Below the pieces are notes generated by a model, which was not told the origin of the DNA, ran no database searches, and saw nothing but the letters and a program-made list of their open reading frames with translations. Positions 4,264 through 63,781 of a DNA stretch of 64,000 bases are shown here, piece after piece. This stretch comes from a phage: NCBI GenBank assembly GCA_011911785.1, contig GCA_011911785.1_4084.1. One strand, 5' to 3'. Numbering within the stretch: position 1 is the first letter of the stretch; each line of letters starts with the position of its first letter. Position numbers and translations under genes: made by a program.

Positions 4264-4673
4264 AACTATATTGCTTAACAAACATGTACTGTCAGGGTGT
4301 TCAGGCTGGCATTCAGGCATTTCATGCTGGTATTAAACTCGTCAAAGATTATGAAGGTTCAGTATTCAGTACTCTAATCGATGAATGGTATAATGAGCAC
4401 GAAACTATTGTAATTCTCAATGCTGGCAACCAAGATAAATTAACCACTCATTACGAGAATCTATCCAAACAGGGCAAGGTTCCATTTGCTAAATTCAATG
4501 AACCAGGTTTGAACGATACCCTCACTAGTGTAGCAGTACTATGCACTGAAGAAATGATTGATGACATGGCACTGATGCGTACTAACGACCCAATGACTGA
4601 TTTACAGCTATGTCACAAATACGGTCATATGTACGAAACACTAAAAGCTATGAGTACAATGAGGACTATTTGA
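4254..4673 (+). CDS. hypothetical protein
   Basis: 139-aa ORF. Confidence 0.4.
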   Translation: MEVKLYCLTNMYCQGVQAGIQAFHAGIKLVKDYEGSVFSTLIDEWYNEHETIVILNAGNQDKLTTHYENLSKQGKVPFAKFNEPGLNDTLTSVAVLCTEEMIDDMALMRTNDPMTDLQLCHKYGHMYETLKAMSTMRTI

Positions 4674-5869
4674 TGAATTTTCCTGAAAAGATTTTCGTCG
4701 CAAGACGTTTTGTTAGTGGGGATCAGGTTGACGGATATATTATCGACGCAACTAAAATGCACACTAAAGCATTTGAAACCAAGAAAGAACGTGTTGAGTA
4801 CTGGGCAAGAACCAATAATATGCCGTCACTTATACTCGACAATGAACCGAAAAAAGGTTTTGCTATTGTTCAAAAATTGATTCACAGTGGGCGTGATACC
4901 TATTTTGTTTGTCGTCACCCAGAAGGATTTGAGTTCAATATCACCGCAAACAATATGCTGGACTTAATCACACACAATGATATCGTTAATGGTGTATTCC
5001 AAGATGCTATGTTCTTTAATAATAATCTTGAACTCATCAATGGTAATACAAAAACATTTGCTAAGATGCAAGAGAAGCAAGAAAAAGCTGAAGAACGTAA
5101 AAGCGTTGTTGGTGAGTTGAAAGTTGGTGATGGATTCCTTTATAACAAAAAAGAGTACTACTATTGTGGTCGAGTTCATGCTCTTTGTTTGAAGAAAACT
5201 AAAGAATTCTCTTTACCTAACAAAAGTTCTTTCTATCATATGGTGTATTGTATCGCTGATGGTACATATGGTGTATGTGCAAGCCTTGACCGTTACGAAT
5301 TAACACCCAGAGCACTCCATAACGTTAAAACGACAATGGAAGCTGAAATTGTTAAAGCAAATGCGTATTTCAATACGTACCGAATGCGAACTGAGAACGC
5401 ATTAGGTGAATGCAATAGACCAGTACTGATCAGTACTAAATCATTTAAAAGTACTGATATGAAAGTAAAATACACTGAAATCACTAAAGACGTTCTTGTT
5501 AATGGTCGTTTCAATGAAAACGTATTATTCATGACTGAACAGAATGGTCAAAAATATCGTGTATTCTTTGGTATTTCAGATAACAACAGCAGAAATTCCT
5601 ATGGATATTATCGCCATGATTATTCTATAGCGTACAAGGGTGATTTTGAAAAATACTGCGGATACCCAGTGGAAGTTGATGCGAATGGTGTAATGTCAAT
5701 GGATGTTGATATCGATAAACATACATCTTTCAATACATGGCGTGGTTATAATTCACCTTTCTATCCACCGACCAAACGATATAGTAATAATTCATCAGAA
5801 TCTAATAAAAAAACTATGGTTCATATTAGCACTGACTGTCCTATTTTTTATGGAACCTATTATCTATAA
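4673..5869 (+). CDS. hypothetical protein
   Basis: Start moved to in-frame ATG at 4673, which forms an ATGA overlap with the upstream stop; no motif recognised. Confidence 0.45.
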   Translation: MNFPEKIFVARRFVSGDQVDGYIIDATKMHTKAFETKKERVEYWARTNNMPSLILDNEPKKGFAIVQKLIHSGRDTYFVCRHPEGFEFNITANNMLDLITHNDIVNGVFQDAMFFNNNLELINGNTKTFAKMQEKQEKAEERKSVVGELKVGDGFLYNKKEYYYCGRVHALCLKKTKEFSLPNKSSFYHMVYCIADGTYGVCASLDRYELTPRALHNVKTTMEAEIVKANAYFNTYRMRTENALGECNRPVLISTKSFKSTDMKVKYTEITKDVLVNGRFNENVLFMTEQNGQKYRVFFGISDNNSRNSYGYYRHDYSIAYKGDFEKYCGYPVEVDANGVMSMDVDIDKHTSFNTWRGYNSPFYPPTKRYSNNSSESNKKTMVHISTDCPIFYGTYYL

Positions 5870-5878
5870 GGGAATATA

Positions 5879-7297
5879 ATGAGCATTTTAGCAATTCTGG
5901 AACAAATCAAAAAGACTTCAAGTACACTTGGTAAGAAAGCAATCCTTGAAGAAAACAAAAACAATGAAACACTCAAAAAAGTACTGAAATATACGCTAGA
6001 CCCTACTATCGTAAGTGGCTATAAGAAGCTACCAGACGCTGCTGACGTGTATCAACATATGACGTTAGATGAAGCTATTGATAAGCTAGAATGCATCTAT
6101 AAGCGTGGTGTGACGGGTAATACGGGGCGTGATTTCATTGCTTCAGTACTGGGTTCCGTATCTGAAGATGATCAGGAAGTTCTCCGTAAAATGCTCACGA
6201 AGAACCTTGATTGTGGTATTCAGGAAAAGAACTGTAATGATGTATTCGGTAAAGGCTTTATTAAAGATGAACCTTATATGCGTTGTTCATTGATTGACAA
6301 GAAAACTGCTAAGAACATCAACTTCAAAGATTATGGTTATGCCGTTGCTGAAGTTAAGATGGATGGTCAGTACTTGAACCACGTTGTTATCAATGCATCA
6401 TTAACATCCACTTCCCGTAATGGTAAGATTTATGACTTCCTCGGTTGTCGTGATGCTGAAATGGCTGGACTTGCTCATCATATTCAAAGTACAGATGAAC
6501 GTTTCAGTAGTGGTGTAGTCTTTATGGGCGAGGGTTTAGTACTGGATACTGATGGGGAAACTATTCTTCCACGTACAACTGGTAACGGCATCATTCAGAA
6601 AGCAGGTAAAGATACTATCACCCAAAACGAAGCAATGCGTACAGTATTCGTTCTCTGGGATGTAGTGCCATATGATGCTTATTGTGCTGGTATCTGGGAT
6701 GTGAAACGTAAGGAACGTCGCGAGATTCTTGAAGGTGCAATCAATGCATTAGGTAGTGAATTCGTGCGTATGGTTGGATATCGTAAGGTGAAGGATCTCA
6801 AAGAAGCCTTTGCTTACAACTCTGAACTCATGAGTTCAGGTGAAGAAGGTTCAGTACTGAAATGTGAAGATGGTATCTGGAAATCTCATACTTCTCCTAA
6901 GCAGTTGAAAATGAAATTGAAAATGCAACTGGACTTGCGTATTGTTGGTTTCAATGAAGGTGAAGGTAAGCGTAAAGGTATGCTTGGTTCTTTACAACTG
7001 GAAAGTGCTTGTGGTACACTAAAAGTAAGCGTAGGAACAGGCATTAAAGAGAAAGATGCTGAATGGACATTTAAAACCATTTGGGAAAGAATGCAAGAAC
7101 TCATTGGTAAAGTTGTTACAATTGAGTGCAATGACGTAGTATATGATAAGCGTACTGGTGAACCGTCACTATTCTTACCAGTGTTTATTGAATTTAGATT
7201 TGACAAAAACACTTGTGACGATTATACTCGTATCTTAGAAATTCGCGATAGTGCAGTTGAGGTCTTCTCAAACAGTATTATTGAATCACTTGGCTAA
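5879..7297 (+). CDS. lig: ATP-dependent DNA ligase (T4 gp30-like)
   Basis: KxDG adenylation motif (EVKMDGQ), EGLVLD, EGSVLK, DLRIVGF; N-terminus MSILAILEQIKK..AILEENKNNE matches my recollection of T4 DNA ligase. Confidence 0.9.
   Translation: MSILAILEQIKKTSSTLGKKAILEENKNNETLKKVLKYTLDPTIVSGYKKLPDAADVYQHMTLDEAIDKLECIYKRGVTGNTGRDFIASVLGSVSEDDQEVLRKMLTKNLDCGIQEKNCNDVFGKGFIKDEPYMRCSLIDKKTAKNINFKDYGYAVAEVKMDGQYLNHVVINASLTSTSRNGKIYDFLGCRDAEMAGLAHHIQSTDERFSSGVVFMGEGLVLDTDGETILPRTTGNGIIQKAGKDTITQNEAMRTVFVLWDVVPYDAYCAGIWDVKRKERREILEGAINALGSEFVRMVGYRKVKDLKEAFAYNSELMSSGEEGSVLKCEDGIWKSHTSPKQLKMKLKMQLDLRIVGFNEGEGKRKGMLGSLQLESACGTLKVSVGTGIKEKDAEWTFKTIWERMQELIGKVVTIECNDVVYDKRTGEPSLFLPVFIEFRFDKNTCDDYTRILEIRDSAVEVFSNSIIESLG
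6850..6861. repeat. 12-bp palindrome TTCAGTACTGAA
   Basis: Exact 12-mer, inside the ligase CDS; same word at 40883, 42123, 59188 and within 62365..62378. Confidence 0.6.
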
Positions 7298-7316
7298 ACA
7301 TTTATTGGAGGTAATT

Positions 7317-8108
7317 ATGAAATTTGTCGTAACATCTGATGTGCACGGTGGCACTGATTACCTCCACAGTGGTGATTACAGTGATACAGTACTGATCATT
7401 GCAGGGGATTTCGATGAAGTTAAACGCAGCCGTTATCGTACTGGTATCGAATCACTGTGTAAGCAGTTCAAGAATGTAGTACTGGTTCCTGGCAACCACG
7501 AGTACTACGGTTCGAACATTTACAAAACGCATCAAGTACTGTCCGATATGCAAGATGAGTTTCCTAATTTCATCTTTTTGCAAAACAAATTTGTATGGCT
7601 GGATGGTGTTTTGCTCGTTGGTAGTACTCTGTGGACAGACTTTGACAAAGGTAATTCCATGACGAAGTTTGATGCTCGTCAGAAGATGAACGATTACAAA
7701 CACATCCGTCATGGAACAACATCCGAGCCTTGGCGTAAGAAACTGACACCAGAAGATACTGAGTTCATGCATCACAAAGATAAACAATTTATCAAAAATT
7801 CAGTTGACACAGTACGCTTAATGCAGGATAATGATTTCAAGGTCATCGTGATTACCCATCACGCACCGAGTTTTCAAAGTGTTTCACCAAAATATAAAAA
7901 CGATTCACTGAATGGTTGTTACTGTTCAGACATGGATCAGTACATTGAAGATTTGGGTGCTGATGTTTGGATTCATGGTCATGTTCATAGTAGCTTTGAT
8001 TACCACATCGGTAAGACACGTATCATTTGTAATCCAAGAGGTTACGAATCTTATAGTGGAGCTTGTGAGAATTTCGATTACAATCCTAAATTGGTATTCG
8101 AAATCTAA
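7317..8108 (+). CDS. calcineurin-like metallophosphoesterase
   Basis: Motifs TSDVHGG, GDFDE, GNHEYY, ITHHAP, HGHVHS; start set to ATG 7317 preceded by 'ggag'. Confidence 0.7.
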   Translation: MKFVVTSDVHGGTDYLHSGDYSDTVLIIAGDFDEVKRSRYRTGIESLCKQFKNVVLVPGNHEYYGSNIYKTHQVLSDMQDEFPNFIFLQNKFVWLDGVLLVGSTLWTDFDKGNSMTKFDARQKMNDYKHIRHGTTSEPWRKKLTPEDTEFMHHKDKQFIKNSVDTVRLMQDNDFKVIVITHHAPSFQSVSPKYKNDSLNGCYCSDMDQYIEDLGADVWIHGHVHSSFDYHIGKTRIICNPRGYESYSGACENFDYNPKLVFEI

Positions 8109-24800: not shown

Positions 24801-27478
24801 TTGTCATAAACCCATTCACCAATGTGTTGAGCCGTATCAGGTTCATATTTCACTTCAATATCAAAAGATTCACCCAACGGAACAGTTTCATTTGCAGGTG
24901 ATAAAGTAATCCCAGTAAGTGCATCATAACTTGCAACACATGTGTTTGTTGCGGAGTGTCCAGTTGACTTATATGTTAATGTTAATGGAGTATCTGATTT
25001 CTTAATAACCTTAAATATCCCTTTTTCATATTCTCCATTATTAAGATGTTCCAAATATTCATGGTCGAATAACCAAACACCAAAATGATATGCAGTATCA
25101 GGTTCATATTTTATATCAATAGTGAATGTTGAACCTAATGGGGCAATTTCGGATGTAGGAGAAAGTGAAATCCCAGTTAATACATCATGTGATGAATCAA
25201 CGTTAACATATGCTGGATATGCATTACCATTTTGGTAGCTCATACTAACATTTGGTGATTTCTCAATAATTTTAAAGTGAGCACGTTCAGGTGTACTGTC
25301 ATCTAAATGAGTCAAATAATATTGATTGTAATACCACGCACCAGCATGTTCTGCATTATCAGGTTCATATGTTAAATCAATATAGAAATCAGTTCCGACT
25401 GGTGCAATAATTTTAGAAGGATTTGCTGTTATTATAGTTGGTGTTACAAAAGGAACACTACCATAAATGGTATTACTTGTAATGGAACCAGACTTATAGG
25501 TAAATGCAAGTTTATCTTGTGTATCTTTAATAGCTAAGAATCTTGCATAATTTGGTGCTTCTGGGTCCATTCCTTGATACTCAAAATGTTCTTTGTCATA
25601 TTCCCATGTACCAGTGTGTTCTGCTTCATCAGGTGTATAAGTTAGTTCAATATATGCAAGTTCACCAACAGTTAATATTTGGAATCGTATAGGGTCATAA
25701 GCAGCAATTGTAAGTGATTCCAAATCTTTATAATCAACTTTACACTCATTAGTTGCAGTAACTTTACCTTCTGAGTACACTAAATCAATTTTATCAATAT
25801 GTTTTAATGCTTTAAAGTGTGCTTTATCAGCAGTTGACTTAGTACTATCAAATGTGATATATTCTTTAAACGTATCAGTATTCCATGCACCTTCGTGTTT
25901 AGCGGTGTCTGGTACATAAGATATCTCAATATCAAATTCATCACCAATCTTCACAGTTTCTGATGTAGGATTCAGTACTAGTGAAGTTAAATCAGAATAT
26001 AGGACATTGAAGCTAACTGTTTTAGCATCACCACCACCATCTGGGGTAAATGTTGCAGTTGTGGTTCCTTGCTTCTTGGCTACGTAGTACATTACATCAT
26101 CGGTACTTTTAGTTGTATCTTCTTCAACGATCCCAACTGGTTCAAATGTCCAAGTACCACCTTTTTGTGCATTGTTTGGTGTATAAGTAATGTCAATTTT
26201 ACCAGTACTTTCTGGTTTGATATTGGATACAGTACTAGGTGTTAACACTACACTTTTCAAATCAGCATACTCAACCGTGAAGTTGACTTCTGGTAAATCT
26301 TTAGTATAATCTGCACTTGGTGTAAATGTAGCTTTTGTACTACCATGTTCAAGTAGCTGGTAATCAAATTTAGTATCTGTATGCGAAATACTTTTTACTA
26401 TATTAGTATCATCAATTGACCATGTTCCACCTTGTTTGGCGTTATCAGGGGTATAGATTATTTCAATCGTGCCAGATGAACCCGCTTTGTCATCTACAGA
26501 GGCAGGTTTGAGTTCTACATTGTCCAACGCAGCATAAGTTATGTCAATTGTTGCAGCCGCAGTTTTAGTTTTATCTTCATTTAATGTGAAGAGTACACTG
26601 GTGGTTGGGTGAACATTTTCTTTGACAGCTATTGCTTTAAACGTTATACTATTTTCGTCTTCACTTACAACTTCAAGAACATTTGTGTTGTATCCACTCC
26701 ATACACCACCACGTTTAGCTGGGGCATAATCGACTGGATCATAAACAACAGATACAGTAAATGTATCATTAAGTTTTACATCAATTGGGTTTGGGTTGAG
26801 AGAAACACTAAAGAGGACGTTAGGATCATCATGTAAATGACCGAACGCGGTTGATTTTAAATGAGGTTTGTTTGTGGGAGTGAATGATATTTCTACTGGA
26901 ATATCACCATCAATGACTCCTGCTTGGAGGATAATACTATTTTTATCACTATGTACTTCAGTTAAATGTTCAGTTGGGTATGTCCATGTACCAGATTGGT
27001 CAGGCCAATCTTTCGGAGAGAAGTAAGCAGTGAATTGCATTTTATCATTTGAATAAAGAACAAAATCATCTGGCTTTATTATAACTTTAGACAACGAATT
27101 TGGCTCCACGTTCGTTCTTCTGAAAATTATTTCACCATTATGTAATTTTATTTTATTACTTTGATATTGAATACCAAAACCATACTTATTATTAATAGCA
27201 TCAGCTTCTTTTATGCAAAATGTATTATTTGCTAAAGATTTAGCAATTTCAGCATCGTCATCATCATACAACAATGTTGATTTATCTTTATTTCTACCTG
27301 TGATTTTTATATCTTTGTAAATCTTGAAATTTTCAGATATTAAATCATATGAATCGAATGTTCTTTGTTTTATAACATACAATTCTTTAACAAATACTTG
27401 CCCTTCTATCTTTGCAGCAGTAACCTGCAATCCACCTATAACAAATGGAAATTGATCTAAGCCAGCTATTGGTTTCAT
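21833..27478 (-). CDS. giant Ig-like repeat protein with shared N-terminal module
   Basis: 1881 aa; N-terminus paralogous to 13049..15475 and 12617..13030, then about 18 repeats of the ~90-aa unit. Confidence 0.55.
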   Translation of the reverse strand: MKPIAGLDQFPFVIGGLQVTAAKIEGQVFVKELYVIKQRTFDSYDLISENFKIYKDIKITGRNKDKSTLLYDDDDAEIAKSLANNTFCIKEADAINNKYGFGIQYQSNKIKLHNGEIIFRRTNVEPNSLSKVIIKPDDFVLYSNDKMQFTAYFSPKDWPDQSGTWTYPTEHLTEVHSDKNSIILQAGVIDGDIPVEISFTPTNKPHLKSTAFGHLHDDPNVLFSVSLNPNPIDVKLNDTFTVSVVYDPVDYAPAKRGGVWSGYNTNVLEVVSEDENSITFKAIAVKENVHPTTSVLFTLNEDKTKTAAATIDITYAALDNVELKPASVDDKAGSSGTIEIIYTPDNAKQGGTWSIDDTNIVKSISHTDTKFDYQLLEHGSTKATFTPSADYTKDLPEVNFTVEYADLKSVVLTPSTVSNIKPESTGKIDITYTPNNAQKGGTWTFEPVGIVEEDTTKSTDDVMYYVAKKQGTTTATFTPDGGGDAKTVSFNVLYSDLTSLVLNPTSETVKIGDEFDIEISYVPDTAKHEGAWNTDTFKEYITFDSTKSTADKAHFKALKHIDKIDLVYSEGKVTATNECKVDYKDLESLTIAAYDPIRFQILTVGELAYIELTYTPDEAEHTGTWEYDKEHFEYQGMDPEAPNYARFLAIKDTQDKLAFTYKSGSITSNTIYGSVPFVTPTIITANPSKIIAPVGTDFYIDLTYEPDNAEHAGAWYYNQYYLTHLDDSTPERAHFKIIEKSPNVSMSYQNGNAYPAYVNVDSSHDVLTGISLSPTSEIAPLGSTFTIDIKYEPDTAYHFGVWLFDHEYLEHLNNGEYEKGIFKVIKKSDTPLTLTYKSTGHSATNTCVASYDALTGITLSPANETVPLGESFDIEVKYEPDTAQHIGEWVYDKEYLQYNAAQSVEYEKGNFTVIKKSDTPLTITFEQGSVKGNSICDAKYDKLTDFSITPASEIVPLGETFVIDITYTPDTAQHIGTWDYDKDHLELLNPDDYDKPQFKVLKKSDTPLVISFTSAGITKTNTCDARYDLLTSVDLTPDSETVLNGDTFTIDISYTPDSAQHIGTWEYDTDMIKLIEPINYEQQQFQVLKRSDTPTVLKYTSTNGKYAENTCTAKYDKLVKLTLSPDNETVSVGDIIDIAITYEPSTAEHKGDWAYDETYLKLDTSKSTADVGVFEVIAKPPSTESTQQISFSSAGVTTENTCSILYDKLESVSVNPPSINVNDGDTFDVTITYVPDTALKSGKWSYETDYFSYLTSRSTESEAYFDVIKQLPDSKKLTFTSAKKSADVTVIPYSQLTDVKLSPESVTPAIGDDFYIDITYTPDTAQHIGTWNTSDFEEYLSLESDSTPDKAHFQVKKYSSSPITLTYTSSGKSSSSTCTIQHSALSAITISPSTIEVKTGDDFYIDITYTPDSAEHTGTWNTSGFDQYLTLESDSTPDRAHFKAIKTVDELELQFICGNIVSNKTICYVDYSVLESISLSPATEELDAGDDFYIDITYTPDTADHKGSWSYSLSDGSVAVGYFELLSDSTPDRAHFKALKSDPNPISLIYTSSGKTATNKCTVVHDIIQSISLGLPGKNDYHKGMEFKVNIVFKPSNVIPLAGTFSGEALNYCEYIPAKSTLTEAYFKVTAYDPSVGDSYYQQPVYGIDYFDEDEIPVDKTAEVLGAPFDLVYTIPGYAPATAQITPLRPYVESFTITPDSFTTKANSYGNYVVMTVNPPDAIGDGRLHESVVALPPYDYKVFSDSHNLMTILETPPEGIDVKFKYTQGTGHDAYSTNSVHIVSTASPLVSVDFIEKTTKSDHVNITALGKMYVAFLTNHPDDALYTGTLTYDETYLSVNWPPMKTIVHFYLIKKPENPITLTYEVKEAGITKTITITADF

Positions 27479-27611
27479 AACATCTCCTTACCTTAAAAAT
27501 GGGATTGTAAACTGCCTCCCAATATGATACCATAGTTCAAATGGTCAATTGGTAAATCAATGAACTTAACAAAAACACTTGATACTACAGTCATAATTGT
27601 TCAGTTTTGCA

Positions 27612-27640
27612 CTTGACATAATTGATCAATTATTGTACTA
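27612..27640 (+). promoter_or_regulatory. sigma70-like promoter (TTGACA-17 nt-TACTAT)
   Basis: Perfect -35 TTGACA at 27612..27617, 17-nt spacer, -10-like TACTAT; in the divergent intergenic region upstream of 27677. Confidence 0.45.
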
Positions 27641-62223: not shown

Positions 62224-62364
62224 CCTATAGGTTTGTCATACAATTGGCTAAATAAAATGGGTATTAATATACCCATAATTATAACCAAAAGAAATATCAA
62301 GATTTTACTTGATATGAAATTGAAAGATGCTATACTACTTACATGTACAGAATGAAAGTTACCT

Positions 62365-62378: not shown

Positions 62379-62470
62379 GTATTGTAGAAAGTCCGATGAG
62401 GCTTTTGCAAATGGCCTCATAAGCCCTCTTTGTAATTGCTCATCATAACACGCAAACAAAGGAGGCGTTT

Positions 62471-63397
62471 TTGACAATAGCGATACAAACACCTAAAACT
62501 AAGACAGCTATAGGCTTATTAGTTTCACTTGTTATCATCGCTGCGTTTGGATTTTATGGTTTTTCTCAACATGATCGTGCATCATCATCGGGCGAAAGTC
62601 AGGTGCACAATTTAAAACCGCAAGTTACACAAATTCAAAAGCAGGAATTACCTAAAGGGTATACACCTAAAGTAGTTCCAGGCAGCGAGAAACATTATAC
62701 TGTTGAATACGGTGATAGTTATCATTCGATAGCTAAGAAGTTTAAACCGCATAATGTGTTGTTTGAAGATTACGTTACAGTATTGAAGAATATCAATCTT
62801 AATGCTAAACTTCATACATCGCAGGGTATCTTTATCCCAACAAAAGAGGATTTGAAAGACGTACTGTTACCTGATGTGGTAGTACTTTTCGATTATAATG
62901 ATCCTGAAATAGTAGCACACATCAAAGAAGCTGAAGGTTCAATTGAATTTCAGTCCAAGAACAAAAGACGTTTACTTGGGGGAAAAGTTGGAGTTCCTTT
63001 CTACAATTCAAAATTTCATCCTTATAAGGATATGAAAGGTAATTATACAATAGGTTATGGACATTACTTAGGTAAGAACGAATCTGATGCAATTAAGTAC
63101 AGAAACGGTATTACCAAAGCACAAGCACATAAACTATTACTTCAAGATTTGAAAAGGACATATAATGACTTTACAACTCTAATGAAGAAAAAAAATGCAG
63201 TAAATCTTACAAAAGACCAACAACGTATTCTCTTTGACATGGCTTACACGATGGGTGTTGATAAGTTGGCCTCATTTAATAAACTATGGAGAAGTGCTGA
63301 AGCTGAAAATCATAAGAAGTTTAAAAGAGAAATCAAAAATTCCTTATGGTATAGGCAAGTAACAAACAGAGCGGATACTTTGTTAAGCTCAATCTAA
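62471..63397 (+). CDS. membrane-anchored LysM-domain lysozyme (T4-lysozyme-like)
   Basis: N-terminal TM helix, LysM-like HYTVEYGDSYHSIAKKF, C-terminal YTIGYGHYL and SLWYRQVTNRADTL resembling T4 lysozyme; apparent TTG start 5 nt after aaaggagg. Confidence 0.75.
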   Translation: MTIAIQTPKTKTAIGLLVSLVIIAAFGFYGFSQHDRASSSGESQVHNLKPQVTQIQKQELPKGYTPKVVPGSEKHYTVEYGDSYHSIAKKFKPHNVLFEDYVTVLKNINLNAKLHTSQGIFIPTKEDLKDVLLPDVVVLFDYNDPEIVAHIKEAEGSIEFQSKNKRRLLGGKVGVPFYNSKFHPYKDMKGNYTIGYGHYLGKNESDAIKYRNGITKAQAHKLLLQDLKRTYNDFTTLMKKKNAVNLTKDQQRILFDMAYTMGVDKLASFNKLWRSAEAENHKKFKREIKNSLWYRQVTNRADTLLSSI

Positions 63398-63411
63398 AAG
63401 GAAGGTGAAGT

Positions 63412-63744
63412 ATGCTAAATCTAGTTATTCAAGGTAATGTTGATATTACTCCAGCAATCCATGACGCAATTCATCAAGAAGCAAACACTCTAAATAAATT
63501 TAGTGATTCTTCAGTACTGAATATTGGTGTTCATGTGAAAAAAGAGCATAAGACACAGTACGCAGTAACTTTAACATCAGGTGGTAAGTCTGTTACTGCC
63601 GATGATGCAGATTTATACAAGGCGATTGTCGATTCATTCGAAAAAATGGAAACTGTATTCAGTAAAGACAAAAGCATTAAATTGCACCGCCGAAACCATC
63701 CAGACCGTCCAGTTGTAGTTGATGTAACTGACGAAGAAGAGTAA
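63412..63744 (+). CDS. hpf: ribosome hibernation / translation inhibitor factor (HPF/RaiA family)
   Basis: VDITPAIHDAI ... TLTSGGKSVTADDADLYKAIVDSFEKME and acidic C-terminus match my recollection of E. coli RaiA/HPF (ITPAI, HEDMYTAI). Confidence 0.8.
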   Translation: MLNLVIQGNVDITPAIHDAIHQEANTLNKFSDSSVLNIGVHVKKEHKTQYAVTLTSGGKSVTADDADLYKAIVDSFEKMETVFSKDKSIKLHRRNHPDRPVVVDVTDEEE

Positions 63745-63753
63745 TATAATAAA

Positions 63754-63781
63754 GGGACAGATTGATTCTGTCCCTTTTCTT
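63754..63781 (+). terminator. rho-independent terminator
   Basis: Hairpin gggacag-attgatt-ctgtccc followed by a T-tract. Confidence 0.65.

What the first reader, a model, noticed from the sequence alone, without database searches (positions are those of the whole stretch)
63412..63744. Phage-encoded ribosome hibernation / translation inhibitor factor (HPF/RaiA homolog)
The 110-aa product matches the RaiA/HPF family along its length as I recall it (conserved ITPAI, the central beta-sheet segment and the acidic C-terminal tail). A phage copy suggests direct manipulation of host ribosome state, either shutting down host translation or preserving ribosomes in stationary-phase hosts. It sits just downstream of the lysozyme gene with its own terminator.
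Basis: partly seen in the sequence, partly recalled or inferred. Interest (0 to 1): 0.65.

Follow-up and report, generated by a model that had tools for sequence, protein, structure and literature searches.

The report
Jumbo-phage copy of ribosome hibernation factor
This is a real but highly diverged phage copy of the bacterial HPF/RaiA ribosome-silencing protein; genes of this kind in phages, including this phage's close relatives, are already known and annotated, but what they do during infection has never been shown.

Summary
The 110-aa ORF at 63412..63744 (+) exists as described. It is a true HPF/RaiA-family protein: Pfam PF02482 scores 40.8 bits against a cutoff of 23.7, the model has the β-α-β-β-β-α fold, and the 34 best PDB fold matches (E ≤ 1.4e-3) are all HPF/RaiA/pY-family factors. 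The window is Escherichia jumbo phage A4 (Asteriusvirus), where the gene is mislabelled 'putative sigma factor'. Orthologues in 121Q and PBECO4 are already 'HPF/RaiA family' in RefSeq, and phage HPFs were published in 2019. The protein is far from the host's own RaiA (24% identity) and HPF (no significant match), and from the rV5-type phage HPF. It lies in a conserved lysozyme–HPF–…–CCA-enzyme–Nudix block, is under purifying selection (ω 0.12–0.27), is the second gene of a promoter-to-terminator unit, and was not reported in the phAPEC6 virion proteome. Its architecture resembles RaiA: an Arg-Arg pair aligned to RaiA R95-R96, then a tail ending in acidic residues. Such tails also occur on non-RaiA cellular HPFs, and conservation is not enriched at known ribosome contacts (p = 0.43). 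Best guess: it parks vacant host ribosomes as protected 70S. Ribosome binding is untested. Interest is low to moderate.

The parts
62309..62336 (+). Sigma-70-like promoter with extended -10 (TTGATA-16 nt-TG-c-TATACT), upstream of the lysozyme-HPF unit
   Evidence: Consensus scan gives 10 of 12 matches with TG. The -10 and -35 are conserved in six of seven Asteriusvirus genomes aligned. EJP2 and Munch have their own sigma-70-like hexamers. Function is not shown; the region as a whole has no excess of promoter-like sites over shuffles.
62384..62470 (+). Conserved 5' leader of the operon: invariant GTAGAAAGTCC, a GAGGCU..GGCCUC hairpin, and a predicted helix pairing CCUCUUUGU with the lysozyme Shine-Dalgarno
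   Evidence: The motif is invariant in 8 phages, including Munch and Hallingskeid. Five pairs of the SD-sequestering helix change on both sides. The motif occurs once in the window and has no Rfam match. It is a side observation and concerns the upstream gene.
62471..63397 (+). Upstream cistron: 308-aa membrane-anchored lysozyme with a weak LysM match (A4_528)
   Evidence: Pfam Phage_lysozyme E = 1.7e-12 and a weak LysM hit. phrog_15410. The phAPEC6 orthologue gp293 was not detected in virions.
63398..63408 (+). Shine-Dalgarno sequence of the HPF-like gene (AAGGAAGGTGA), in the 14-nt gap after the lysozyme stop codon
   Evidence: Read from the sequence. Conserved across Asteriusvirus, with GAGGTG-type equivalents in EJP2 and Hallingskeid.
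63412..63696 (+). HPF/RaiA-family folded domain, residues 1-95 (β1 2-8, α1 14-30, β2 36-46, β3 49-56, β4 59-65, α2 68-95), including K29-F30, the invariant HVKKEHK β2-β3 hairpin, D67-L-Y69, and K78/K85/K87/K90/R93-R94 on α2
   Evidence: Pfam PF02482 at 40.8 bits. AF2 model with pLDDT 79. Foldseek: the 34 best matches (E <= 1.4e-3) are all HPF/RaiA/pY-family factors, TM up to 0.79. Family invariants. Mapping to RaiA and HPF contact positions.
63697..63744 (+). Disordered C-terminal tail, residues 96-110 (HPDRPVVVDVTDEEE), plus the stop codon. The end is acidic, and D104, E109 and E110 are invariant within Asteriusvirus
   Evidence: pLDDT is below 50 from residue 101. Tail conservation. It aligns with the RaiA tail ...ANFVEEVEEE. 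Similar tails occur on non-RaiA cellular HPFs.
63750..63781 (+). Intrinsic terminator closing the lysozyme-HPF unit: stem GGGACAGA/TCTGTCCC, then TTTTCTT
   Evidence: Free energy -18.8 kcal/mol, z = -5.4, and none of 200 shuffles folds as well. The hairpin is kept through compensatory substitutions in EJP2, Hallingskeid and Munch. The scan reports it on the - strand because the AAA/TTT extension makes it look bidirectional.

Best explanation
**Shown**
- The gene encodes a diverged but genuine member of the HPF/RaiA (Ribosomal_S30AE) family.
- It has been inherited vertically in a lineage of ~350-kb jumbo phages of Enterobacteria and is kept under purifying selection.
- It is transcribed as the second cistron of a lysozyme-HPF unit that lies between a sigma-70-like promoter and an intrinsic terminator.
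- The phAPEC6 virion proteome paper does not report its orthologue, so it probably acts inside the infected cell.

**Inferred**
- Like RaiA (protein Y), it inserts into the mRNA/tRNA channel of the 30S subunit of vacant host ribosomes. The proposed contacts are K29 and aromatic-30, the basic β2-β3 hairpin, the basic face of α2, and R93-R94.
- Its 15-residue tail then runs toward the RMF site. Ribosomes would therefore be held as inactive, nuclease-protected 70S monomers rather than RMF-dependent 100S dimers.

**Proposed benefit**
- A slow-replicating jumbo phage would keep a reusable ribosome pool in stressed, slow-growing or stationary hosts.
- This fits the phage's other translation-maintenance genes: RNA ligase with polynucleotide kinase, a CCA-adding enzyme and an IF3 homologue.
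For: **Family and fold**
- Pfam 40.8 bits, above the gathering score of 23.7.
- PDB sequence hits are all HPF or protein Y.
- The AF2 model has β-α-β-β-β-α topology.
- The 34 best Foldseek matches (E <= 1.4e-3) are all HPF/RaiA/pY-family hibernation factors, most solved on ribosomes.
- The syntenic Munch orthologue passes TIGR00741 (55.8 against 40.9).

**Selection and inheritance**
- ω is 0.12-0.27 at unsaturated dS, compared with 0.11-0.18 for the neighbouring lysozyme.
- The lysozyme-HPF-...-CCA-enzyme-Nudix order is conserved in A4, 121Q, Hallingskeid and Munch.

**Ribosome-contact features retained**
- K29 and an aromatic at 30 (RaiA K29-W30; position 30 stacks on A790).
- K78, K85 and K87, plus R93-R94 aligned to RaiA R95-R96, which contact rRNA and uS7.

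**Tail**
- The tail length and acidic end resemble RaiA.
- The RaiA tail points toward the RMF site.
- No RMF homologue exists in any phage record.

**Context**
- The gene is absent from the text of the phAPEC6 virion-proteome paper.
- It lies in a non-structural block with tRNA-repair genes.
- A4 encodes an IF3 homologue.
Against: - No binding or activity data exist for this clade.
- The only phage HPF tested, rV5's, was absent from salt-washed 70S and 100S particles and did not change 100S levels. It is a different lineage, though: 27% identity over 66 aa.
- Conservation within the phage clade is not enriched at positions aligned to published HPF/RaiA contacts (0.695 against 0.688, permutation p = 0.43).
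- Two α2 contacts are replaced in Asteriusvirus: R83 becomes T and K91 becomes I. The α1 residue K26 is also lost in A4.
- Scores against the RaiA and HPF equivalog models are tiny and do not discriminate (17.3 and 20.1 bits).
- A basic-then-acidic tail also occurs on cellular proteins that score closer to HPF than to RaiA. The tail therefore does not establish RaiA-type behaviour.
- Expression timing is unknown.
Confidence: 0.5

Rival explanations
1. Anti-hibernation decoy. The phage protein competes with host HPF, RaiA and RMF for the same 30S site but binds weakly or reversibly. Its tail excludes RMF. Host-imposed hibernation (100S formation) is therefore prevented or reversed, and ribosomes stay available for phage mRNAs.
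For: - Mizuno et al. proposed this for viral HPF.
- Loss of several basic contacts (R83T, K91I, K26T) and of the basic α1 face fits weaker binding.
- The RaiA-like tail points toward the RMF site.
- rV5 HPF was washed off ribosomes by high salt.
- The phage also supplies IF3, which acts on free 30S subunits.
Against: - A protein that occupies the A/P channel blocks translation itself, so a net gain needs fast release. No evidence for that exists.
- Invariant basic residues (K29, K43-K44, K47, K87, R94) argue for real affinity.
- No data exist on timing or stoichiometry.
Confidence: 0.2
2. Host shut-off factor. The protein is made early from the sigma-70-like promoter and blocks initiation on host ribosomes. 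Phage messages escape by some selective route, for example with the help of phage IF3.
For: - A host-type promoter lies upstream.
[quoted passage not shown] This rests on established knowledge (Vila-Sanjurjo 2004; Agafonov 2001), not on anything retrieved here.
- A phage IF3 is present.
Against: - HPF/RaiA proteins bind empty ribosomes without regard to the mRNA, and no known mechanism would spare phage mRNAs.
- The gene is co-transcribed with a lysozyme rather than with typical early host-takeover genes.
- The promoter call is only a consensus match, and the region has no excess of such sites over shuffles.
Confidence: 0.1
3. Neofunctionalised fold. The Asteriusvirus branch kept the HPF fold but no longer acts on the ribosome decoding centre. 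It binds another RNA or a phage or host protein through the invariant HVKKEHK hairpin and the conserved acidic C-terminal motif.
For: - This branch is the most derived of its clade: TIGR00741 scores are 34.8 for A4, 37.6 for Hallingskeid and 55.8 for Munch.
- Conservation is not focused on known ribosome contacts.
- The clade-specific invariant motifs (HVKKEHK, and Φ-D-Φ-T-E/D-x-E-E at the C-terminus) have no described role.
- rV5 HPF was not found on ribosomes.
Against: - All significant structural neighbours are ribosome-bound factors.
- The key aromatic and basic contacts and the RR pair are retained.
- The β2-β3 loop and the C-terminus are ribosome-contacting elements in bacterial HPF and YfiA.
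Confidence: 0.15
4. It is not an HPF at all. It is a sigma factor or sigma-54 protein, as the A4 record says, or a dodecin-like flavin binder, as the weak second Pfam hit might suggest.
For: - The deposited product name is 'putative sigma factor / putative sigma 54'.
- Pfam Dodecin gives E = 6e-4 and 20.5 bits.
Against: - No sigma-factor family matches even at E <= 1. The label is a corruption of the legacy family name 'sigma 54 modulation protein'.
- Dodecin is below its gathering score (20.5 against 22.5).
- No dodecin appears among the significant fold matches.
Confidence: 0.02

Closest known systems
E. coli RaiA (YfiA, protein Y; PDB 4V8I, 1N3G)
   Same: - Same β-α-β-β-β-α fold, and almost the same length (110 against 113 aa).
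- Shares the EITPAI-type start of α1, the K29-aromatic30 pair, the D-M/L-Y start of α2, and K80 and K87 equivalents.
- An Arg-Arg pair (R93-R94) aligns with R95-R96.
- The tail is flexible and ends in an acidic cluster: VTDEEE against EEVEEE.
   Different: - Only 24% identity over 79 aa, at E = 1e-3.
- The RaiA equivalog model gives 17.3 bits against a cutoff of 158.
- R83 and K91 are not conserved.
- The basic β2-β3 hairpin HVKKEHK is specific to the phage clade.
- RaiA is a young lineage restricted to part of the γ-proteobacteria, and nothing shows descent from it.
E. coli HPF (YhbH; PDB 6H4N, 2RQL)
   Same: Same family and fold. Foldseek TM-score to 6h4n_x is 0.69 normalised to the query and 0.79 to the target. 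Expected to use the same 30S binding site.
   Different: - No significant BLASTP alignment (E = 1.4).
- The HPF equivalog model gives 20.1 bits against a cutoff of 125.
- E. coli HPF ends at residue 95 with no tail and works with RMF to form 100S particles.
- The phage protein has a tail, and no phage encodes RMF.
rV5-type phage HPF (Vequintavirinae; Mizuno et al. 2019, PMC6375957)
   Same: Also a phage-encoded PF02482 protein of about 105 aa in a large virulent coliphage. It is considered an auxiliary translation gene.
   Different: - A separate lineage. rV5-type is about 44% identical to E. coli HPF and scores 65 bits on the HPF equivalog model. It is 27% identical to the A4 protein over 66 aa.
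- The genomic context is different.
- rV5 HPF was tested and not recovered from salt-washed ribosomes. The A4 clade is untested.
Syntenic orthologues in related jumbo phages: 121Q gp533, PBECO4, phAPEC6 gp292c, Sharanji, Munch gp216, Hallingskeid
   Same: - Same gene in the same slot: lysozyme, HPF, small ORFs, CCA-adding enzyme, Nudix hydrolase.
- Same tail motif and same downstream terminator.
- Already annotated as HPF/RaiA family, ribosome-associated inhibitor, or S30EA.
   Different: - Identity is 73-88% within Asteriusvirus, 44% to Hallingskeid and 34% to Munch.
- Munch has one extra gene and a terminator between the lysozyme and HPF genes.

Membership tests
HPF/RaiA superfamily (Pfam PF02482 Ribosomal_S30AE) | Profile match above the curated gathering score | tested here: met
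   40.8 bits against 23.7, E = 3.8e-10, covering 80 of 88 profile positions. All 13 full-length close homologues carry a precomputed PF02482 hit; the 74-aa SD-15_S21 fragment P0014 has none.
HPF/RaiA superfamily (Pfam PF02482 Ribosomal_S30AE) | β-α-β-β-β-α fold with two helices packed on one face of a four-stranded sheet | tested here: met
   AF2 model: pLDDT 79, pTM 0.67, elements E2-8, H14-30, E36-46, E49-56, E59-65, H68-95. The 34 best Foldseek PDB matches (E <= 1.4e-3) are all HPF/RaiA/pY-family factors, with TM-scores up to 0.79.
HPF/RaiA superfamily (Pfam PF02482 Ribosomal_S30AE) | Retention of residues that contact 16S rRNA, uS7 and uS9 | tested here: inconclusive
   K29, aromatic-30, K78, K85, K87 and R93-R94 are kept. 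R83 becomes T, K91 becomes I and K26 becomes T. Conservation is not enriched at contact-aligned positions, p = 0.43.
HPF/RaiA superfamily (Pfam PF02482 Ribosomal_S30AE) | Binds the 30S decoding centre and inactivates vacant ribosomes | not testable with these tools
   This needs biochemistry or cryo-EM. The only phage HPF assayed (rV5, a different lineage) was not found on salt-washed ribosomes.
NCBI TIGR00741 (HPF/YfiA family equivalog) | Score at or above the curated cutoff of 40.9 bits | tested here: not met
   A4 scores 34.8 bits and Hallingskeid 37.6. The syntenic Munch orthologue passes at 55.8, so the A4 branch is a diverged member rather than a non-member.
RaiA / YfiA / protein Y subfamily (NF007654) | Orthology to enterobacterial RaiA (equivalog score at or above 158 bits) | tested here: not met
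   17.3 bits and 24% identity by BLASTP.
RaiA / YfiA / protein Y subfamily (NF007654) | Single domain plus a flexible C-terminal tail of about 15-20 aa, with an Arg-Arg anchor and an acidic end | tested here: met
   R93-R94 align with R95-R96. The tail is 15-16 aa and ends DVTDEEE, against FVEEVEEE in RaiA, and it is disordered in the model. The feature is not unique to RaiA.
RaiA / YfiA / protein Y subfamily (NF007654) | Stabilises 70S monomers and antagonises RMF/HPF-driven 100S formation | not testable with these tools
   Inferred only from the tail architecture and the published direction of the YfiA tail toward the RMF site.
Short HPF / YhbH subfamily (NF007780) | Equivalog score at or above 125 bits, about 95 aa with no tail, and co-operation with RMF | tested here: not met
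   20.1 bits and no significant BLASTP alignment. The protein has a tail. No RMF homologue is found in any phage record, although the host supplies RMF.
Long HPF (Gram-positive type) | C-terminal dimerisation domain after a linker, total length about 180-190 aa | tested here: not met
   The protein is 110 aa. Pfam finds only the N-terminal S30AE domain, and the tail is disordered.
Sigma factor / sigma-54 (the deposited A4 annotation) | Match to any sigma-factor domain family | tested here: not met
   No sigma-factor family appears in Pfam or NCBIfam even at E <= 1. The label derives from the old name 'sigma 54 modulation protein'.
Dodecin (PF07311) | Profile match above the gathering score, and a dodecin fold | tested here: not met
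   20.5 bits against 22.5. No dodecin appears among the significant fold matches.

The most novel reading that the evidence does not exclude
The HPF-like protein may be a determinant of persistent (carrier-state) infection.

**Proposed mechanism**
- The protein puts the ribosomes of infected, non-growing cells into a protected 70S state.
- A slow jumbo phage can then wait inside colony or stationary-phase hosts and resume when nutrients return.

**The lead**
- A survey of 267,092 Escherichia assemblies counted genomes of 'persistent virulent phages'. The two clusters with the most were Vequintavirinae (68) and Asteriusvirus (54).
- My searches show these are the two coliphage groups that encode HPF-family genes, acquired independently.
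- That preprint never mentions ribosomes.

**Counter-examples**
- Goslarvirus and Seoulvirus have higher persistent fractions, and T4-like phages also persist. None of these appears among the HPF matches that were listed.
- Only 40 of the 130 records matching E. coli HPF were listed, so absence was not verified.
- The link therefore rests on two coinciding lists.
Probability: 0.15. Interest if true: 0.7.

Novelty: already known. Interest (0 to 1): 0.3.

Why it matters
**Why the question is open**
- Hibernation factors decide whether idle ribosomes survive stress.
- Viruses that carry their own copy are presumably tuning that decision, and nobody has shown how.
- The only experiment so far, on rV5 HPF, was negative.

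**What this clade offers**
- The jumbo-phage clade is an independent, older and more diverged acquisition.
- It has a RaiA-like tail and sits in genomes that also encode IF3, tRNA-repair enzymes and a CCA-adding enzyme.
- Showing that it parks, protects or releases host ribosomes would explain how very large, slow phages cope with starved hosts.
- It might also bear on their tendency to persist in bacterial cultures.

**As a database finding, it is ordinary**
- The gene class is published.
- Orthologues are correctly named in RefSeq.
- The only concrete correction is that the A4 record's 'putative sigma factor' label is wrong.

Tried and rejected
1. **Sigma-factor reading of the deposited annotation.** Rejected: no sigma-factor family matches.
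2. **Dodecin.** Rejected: below the gathering score and no fold support.
3. **Recent capture of host raiA or hpf.** Rejected:
   - Identity is 24% to RaiA and not significant to HPF.
   - GC is 36.6%, close to the window's 34.8%.
   - Synteny is conserved across genera.
4. **Same lineage as the tested rV5 HPF.** Rejected: 27% identity over 66 aa, in a different context.
5. **Assigning the protein to the RaiA or the HPF subfamily by equivalog HMMs.** Uninformative: 17.3 against 20.1 bits.
6. **Using the tail as a RaiA-lineage marker.** Rejected: cellular proteins that score closer to HPF carry similar basic-then-acidic tails.
7. **Conservation enrichment at ribosome-contact positions.** Null result, p = 0.43.
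8. **Phage-encoded RMF partner.** None found in 50,697 phage records.
9. **Truncated copies in Salmonella SD phages as evidence of dispensability.** Rejected: the neighbouring genes are fragmented too and the genomes are shorter, so sequence quality is the likelier cause.
10. **Recurring promoter or leader motifs as a guide to temporal class.** TGTAGAAAGTCC occurs once in the window, and TGCTATACT is not over-represented.
11. **Rfam match for the conserved leader.** None found.
12. **Pfam domains in the small conserved ORFs next to the gene.** None linked to translation.
13. **Virion packaging.** The orthologue is absent from the text of the phAPEC6 virion-proteome paper.
14. **P0015, a 1605-aa hit made of tandem repeats, in the profile search.** Treated as spurious.
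Full report

Yes. An ATG-initiated ORF of 110 codons runs from 63412 to 63744 on the + strand. A strong Shine-Dalgarno sequence (AAGGAAGGTGA, 63398-63408) sits in the 14-nt gap after the stop codon of the upstream 308-aa ORF. That upstream ORF matches Pfam Phage_lysozyme (E = 1.7e-12) and has a hydrophobic N-terminal anchor and a weak LysM hit.

**2. Is it an HPF/RaiA homologue?**

Yes, on four independent lines of evidence.
- Pfam PF02482 (Ribosomal_S30AE) matches residues 8-87 over 80 of 88 profile positions. The score is 40.8 bits against a gathering score of 23.7, with E = 3.8e-10.
- phmmer against all PDB chains returns only HPF, protein Y and RaiA entries, with a best E of 5e-7.
- An AlphaFold2 model built on 14 family sequences has pLDDT 79 and β-α-β-β-β-α topology, with a long α2 helix (residues 68-95). 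Confidence drops after about residue 96 (mean pLDDT 52 for residues 91-100), and the tail is disordered, with pLDDT below 50 from residue 101.
- In a Foldseek search of the PDB, the 34 best matches (E ≤ 1.4e-3) are all HPF/RaiA/pY-family hibernation factors, most of them solved on ribosomes. TM-scores reach 0.79.

The match is diverged, however. It misses NCBI's TIGR00741 cutoff (34.8 against 40.9 bits). It scores only 20.1 bits on the enterobacterial HPF equivalog model and 17.3 on the RaiA model, whose cutoffs are 125 and 158. A weak Dodecin hit is below threshold and has no fold support.

**3. Where is it from, and is it already known?**

The window is Escherichia phage A4 (ON286972.1), a 355.5-kb jumbo phage of the genus Asteriusvirus. 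The match is 99.7% identical at the DNA level and the protein is 100% identical. In that record the gene, A4_529, is labelled 'putative sigma factor / putative sigma 54'. This is a corruption of the legacy family name 'sigma 54 modulation protein'; no sigma-factor family matches.

Orthologues are already named correctly elsewhere:
- 'HPF/RaiA family ribosome-associated protein' in the RefSeq records of 121Q and PBECO4.
- 'Ribosome-associated inhibitor A' in phAPEC6.
- 'Ribosome hibernation promoting factor' in Turkey5.
- The Sharanji paper lists the orthologue among translation factors.

Phage-encoded HPF as a class was published by Mizuno et al. in 2019 (PMC6375957). They listed rV5-like phages and the jumbo phage GAP32. 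They expressed rV5 HPF in E. coli, found it in lysates but not in salt-washed 70S or 100S particles, and saw no effect on 100S levels. I found no later functional study.

The finding is therefore already known at the level of identity. Function remains open.

**4. Evolutionary anatomy**

*Distribution.* tblastn finds the A4-type protein in 43 phage records. All are jumbo phages of about 310-386 kb infecting Escherichia, Salmonella, Klebsiella or Erwinia. Identity falls from 73-88% within Asteriusvirus to 44% in Erwinia phage Hallingskeid and 34% in the Salmonella phage Munch group.

*Nearest relatives.* An exhaustive profile search of 1.84 billion representative proteins gives only 62 hits at E ≤ 1e-3 and 6 at E ≤ 1e-10. 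The nearest lie on metagenomic contigs of 258-351 kb, which is jumbo-phage size.

*Distance from host proteins and from rV5 HPF.*
- The host's own proteins are distant: 24% identity to RaiA (E = 1e-3) and no significant alignment to HPF.
- The rV5-type phage HPF occurs in about 130 records, mostly Vequintavirinae, and is about 44% identical to E. coli HPF. It is a separate lineage, 27% identical to A4 over 66 aa and in a different context.
- Coliphages have therefore acquired HPF-family genes at least twice.

*Synteny and selection.*
- Gene order is conserved from A4 and 121Q to Hallingskeid and Munch: lysozyme, HPF, small ORFs, CCA-adding tRNA nucleotidyltransferase, Nudix hydrolase. The gene is thus old and vertically inherited in this lineage.
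- Pairwise dN/dS within Asteriusvirus at unsaturated dS (0.44-0.99) is 0.12-0.27, compared with 0.11-0.18 for the neighbouring lysozyme. That indicates purifying selection.
- The syntenic Munch orthologue passes TIGR00741 (55.8 bits), Hallingskeid scores 37.6 and A4 34.8. The A4 branch is therefore the most derived.

**5. Expression unit**

- A sigma-70-like promoter with an extended -10 (TTGATA-16 nt-TGcTATACT, 62309-62336) lies upstream of the lysozyme gene. It is conserved in six of seven Asteriusvirus genomes aligned, and EJP2 and Munch have their own sigma-70-like hexamers.
- No terminator lies between the lysozyme and HPF genes.
- After the HPF gene there is a hairpin (63753-63773) followed by TTTTCTT. 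Its free energy is -18.8 kcal/mol and z = -5.4. The stem is maintained by compensatory substitutions in EJP2, Hallingskeid and Munch.

The gene is therefore the second cistron of a two-gene unit. 'Its own terminator' is only partly right.

The phAPEC6 orthologue, gp292c, appears nowhere in the text of that phage's virion proteome paper, which lists 62 virion proteins. The lysozyme gp293 was explicitly not detected in virions. An intracellular role is therefore likely. Temporal class is unknown.

**6. Which kind of HPF does it resemble?**

Published cryo-EM contacts for enterobacterial HPF and YfiA place the interface on four elements:
- the centre of the β-sheet;
- the β2-β3 loop;
- an aromatic residue at position 30, which stacks on A790;
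- a basic track on α2 (positions 80, 83, 87, 91 and 95). In YfiA, R95-R96-A97 also contact rRNA and uS7.

The same work shows the YfiA tail heading toward the RMF site, with its last 12 or so residues unresolved.

In my alignment the phage clade compares as follows.
- It keeps K29 and F/Y30, K78, K85, K87 and an Arg/Lys-Arg pair (R93-R94) aligned to RaiA R95-R96.
- A 15-16-residue tail follows, whose end (Φ-D-Φ-T-E/D-x-E-E) is conserved across the whole clade. It resembles RaiA's ...FVEEVEEE.
- E. coli HPF stops before this tail.
- No phage record encodes RMF.

Three results weaken the case.
- R83 and K91 are replaced by T and I in Asteriusvirus.
- A permutation test finds no enrichment of conservation at contact-aligned positions: 0.695 against 0.688, p = 0.43.
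- Basic-then-acidic tails also occur on 110-127-aa cellular proteins that score closer to HPF than to RaiA. This fits the report that RaiA is a young lineage and that ancestral γ-proteobacterial HPFs were about 120 aa.

In conclusion, the architecture is RaiA-like, but membership of the RaiA lineage is not supported.

**7. Most likely mechanism**

Family membership, selection, operon structure and non-virion status are shown. The rest is inferred.

I propose that the protein occupies the A/P-site channel of vacant host 30S or 70S particles, as RaiA does. Its tail would exclude RMF. Ribosomes would then be held as inactive, protected 70S monomers rather than 100S dimers.

The setting fits translation-apparatus maintenance:
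- The gene ends a long same-strand block of non-structural genes that includes RNA ligase and polynucleotide kinase/phosphatase.
- A CCA-adding enzyme lies just downstream.
- A4 encodes an IF3 homologue elsewhere in the genome, at record positions 262644-263144.

I put this explanation at about 0.5. The rivals are:
- a weak-binding decoy that prevents host-imposed hibernation, which is Mizuno's suggestion (0.2);
- a fold that has taken on a new function and no longer acts on the ribosome (0.15);
- a host shut-off factor (0.1).

**8. A lead found while reading**

A 2025 preprint surveyed 267,092 Escherichia assemblies for genomes of virulent phages that persist in bacterial isolates. The largest clusters were Vequintavirinae (68) and Asteriusvirus (54), and Asteriusvirus had a persistent fraction of 0.76. 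These are the two coliphage groups that carry HPF-family genes.

Consistent with this, several orthologues in the protein database are labelled '[Escherichia coli]' but sit on contigs of 352-371 kb. The preprint does not mention ribosomes or translation.

The coincidence suggests that phage HPF could support persistence in non-growing hosts. There are counter-examples, however. Goslarvirus, Seoulvirus and T4-like phages also persist, and none of them appears among the HPF matches that were listed. Only 40 of the 130 records matching E. coli HPF were listed, so I did not verify their absence. I rate this hypothesis at about 0.15.

**9. Verdict**

- The identification as an HPF/RaiA homologue is supported.
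- The deposited 'sigma factor' label is wrong.
- The gene class and its orthologues are already known and annotated.
- Function is unresolved and testable.

Interest is 0.3.

Noticed in passing
window 62384-62470 (5' leader of the lysozyme gene, same transcription unit): GTAGAAAGTCC is invariant about 77-80 nt upstream of the lysozyme start codon in all 8 phages examined. That includes Munch and Hallingskeid, whose coding regions are saturated at synonymous sites. A GAGGCU..GGCCUC hairpin follows. A predicted helix then pairs CCUCUUUGU with the lysozyme Shine-Dalgarno; five of its pairs change on both sides in EJP2 and Hallingskeid, but six of its nine pairs are broken in Munch. This may be translational control by SD sequestration. 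There is no Rfam match, and the motif occurs once in the window.
   Followed up: partly
L004 (121Q) versus L007 (SP27), lysozyme and HPF genes; equivalent to window 62471-63744: 121Q and SP27 have nearly identical lysozyme genes (dS 0.005) but diverged HPF genes (dS 0.55, dN 0.08). This implies a recombination breakpoint at the gene boundary and mosaic exchange of the HPF gene within Asteriusvirus.
   Followed up: no
window 63412-63744; GenBank ON286972.1 locus tag A4_529: The deposited product name 'putative sigma factor / putative sigma 54' is an annotation error that has spread from the old family name 'sigma 54 modulation protein'. Several other records carry 'putative sigma 54' or 'putative sigma'.
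   Followed up: yes
ON286972.1 262644-263144 (outside the window); 121Q gene 47 (L014 283-786): A4 and the wider RaK2-like jumbo-phage group (89 records) encode an IF3 homologue. In 121Q it sits next to a ClpS-like gene. IF3 is more widespread in this group than the HPF-like gene, which is found in 43 records. RaK2, K64-1, Serratia phage BF and the Erwinia pEa_SNUABM phages showed no HPF match.
   Followed up: partly
literature: bioRxiv 10.1101/2024.12.31.630880 set: The two coliphage clusters most often found as 'persistent virulent phages' in E. coli assemblies are Vequintavirinae (68) and Asteriusvirus (54). These are the two groups that encode HPF-family genes. The preprint does not discuss ribosomes.
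   Followed up: partly
L011 (OR699188.1) 1501-1725 and L012 (OR699183.1) 1493-1645: Salmonella 'SD' Asteriusvirus records carry internally deleted or N-terminally truncated HPF genes; P0014 is 74 aa and lacks residues ~22-57. The adjacent lysozyme is also split into fragments, and the genomes are 25-40 kb shorter. This looks like a sequence or assembly quality problem rather than gene decay.
   Followed up: partly
protein P0015 (from the representative-protein search): A 1605-aa predicted protein made of 29 tandem copies of a 53-aa unit scored E = 3e-34 against the HPF profile, by summing weak matches to profile positions 45-81. It is probably an assembly artefact or a spurious hit.
   Followed up: no
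window 4474-5619 and 6693-7625; also 26867-27619: The window encodes an RNA ligase and a 3'-phosphatase/5'-polynucleotide kinase, the classic tRNA-repair pair. It also encodes a Sir2-like protein, Clp protease subunits, PhoH, and NrdD/NrdG. ARAGORN finds no tRNA genes in the window.
   Followed up: no
L001 5979-7046 (A4_535, just beyond the window's end): A4 has a 355-aa ORF with a DUF4379 treble-clef zinc-finger domain, inserted immediately upstream of the CCA-adding enzyme gene. 121Q has no ORF at that position.
   Followed up: no
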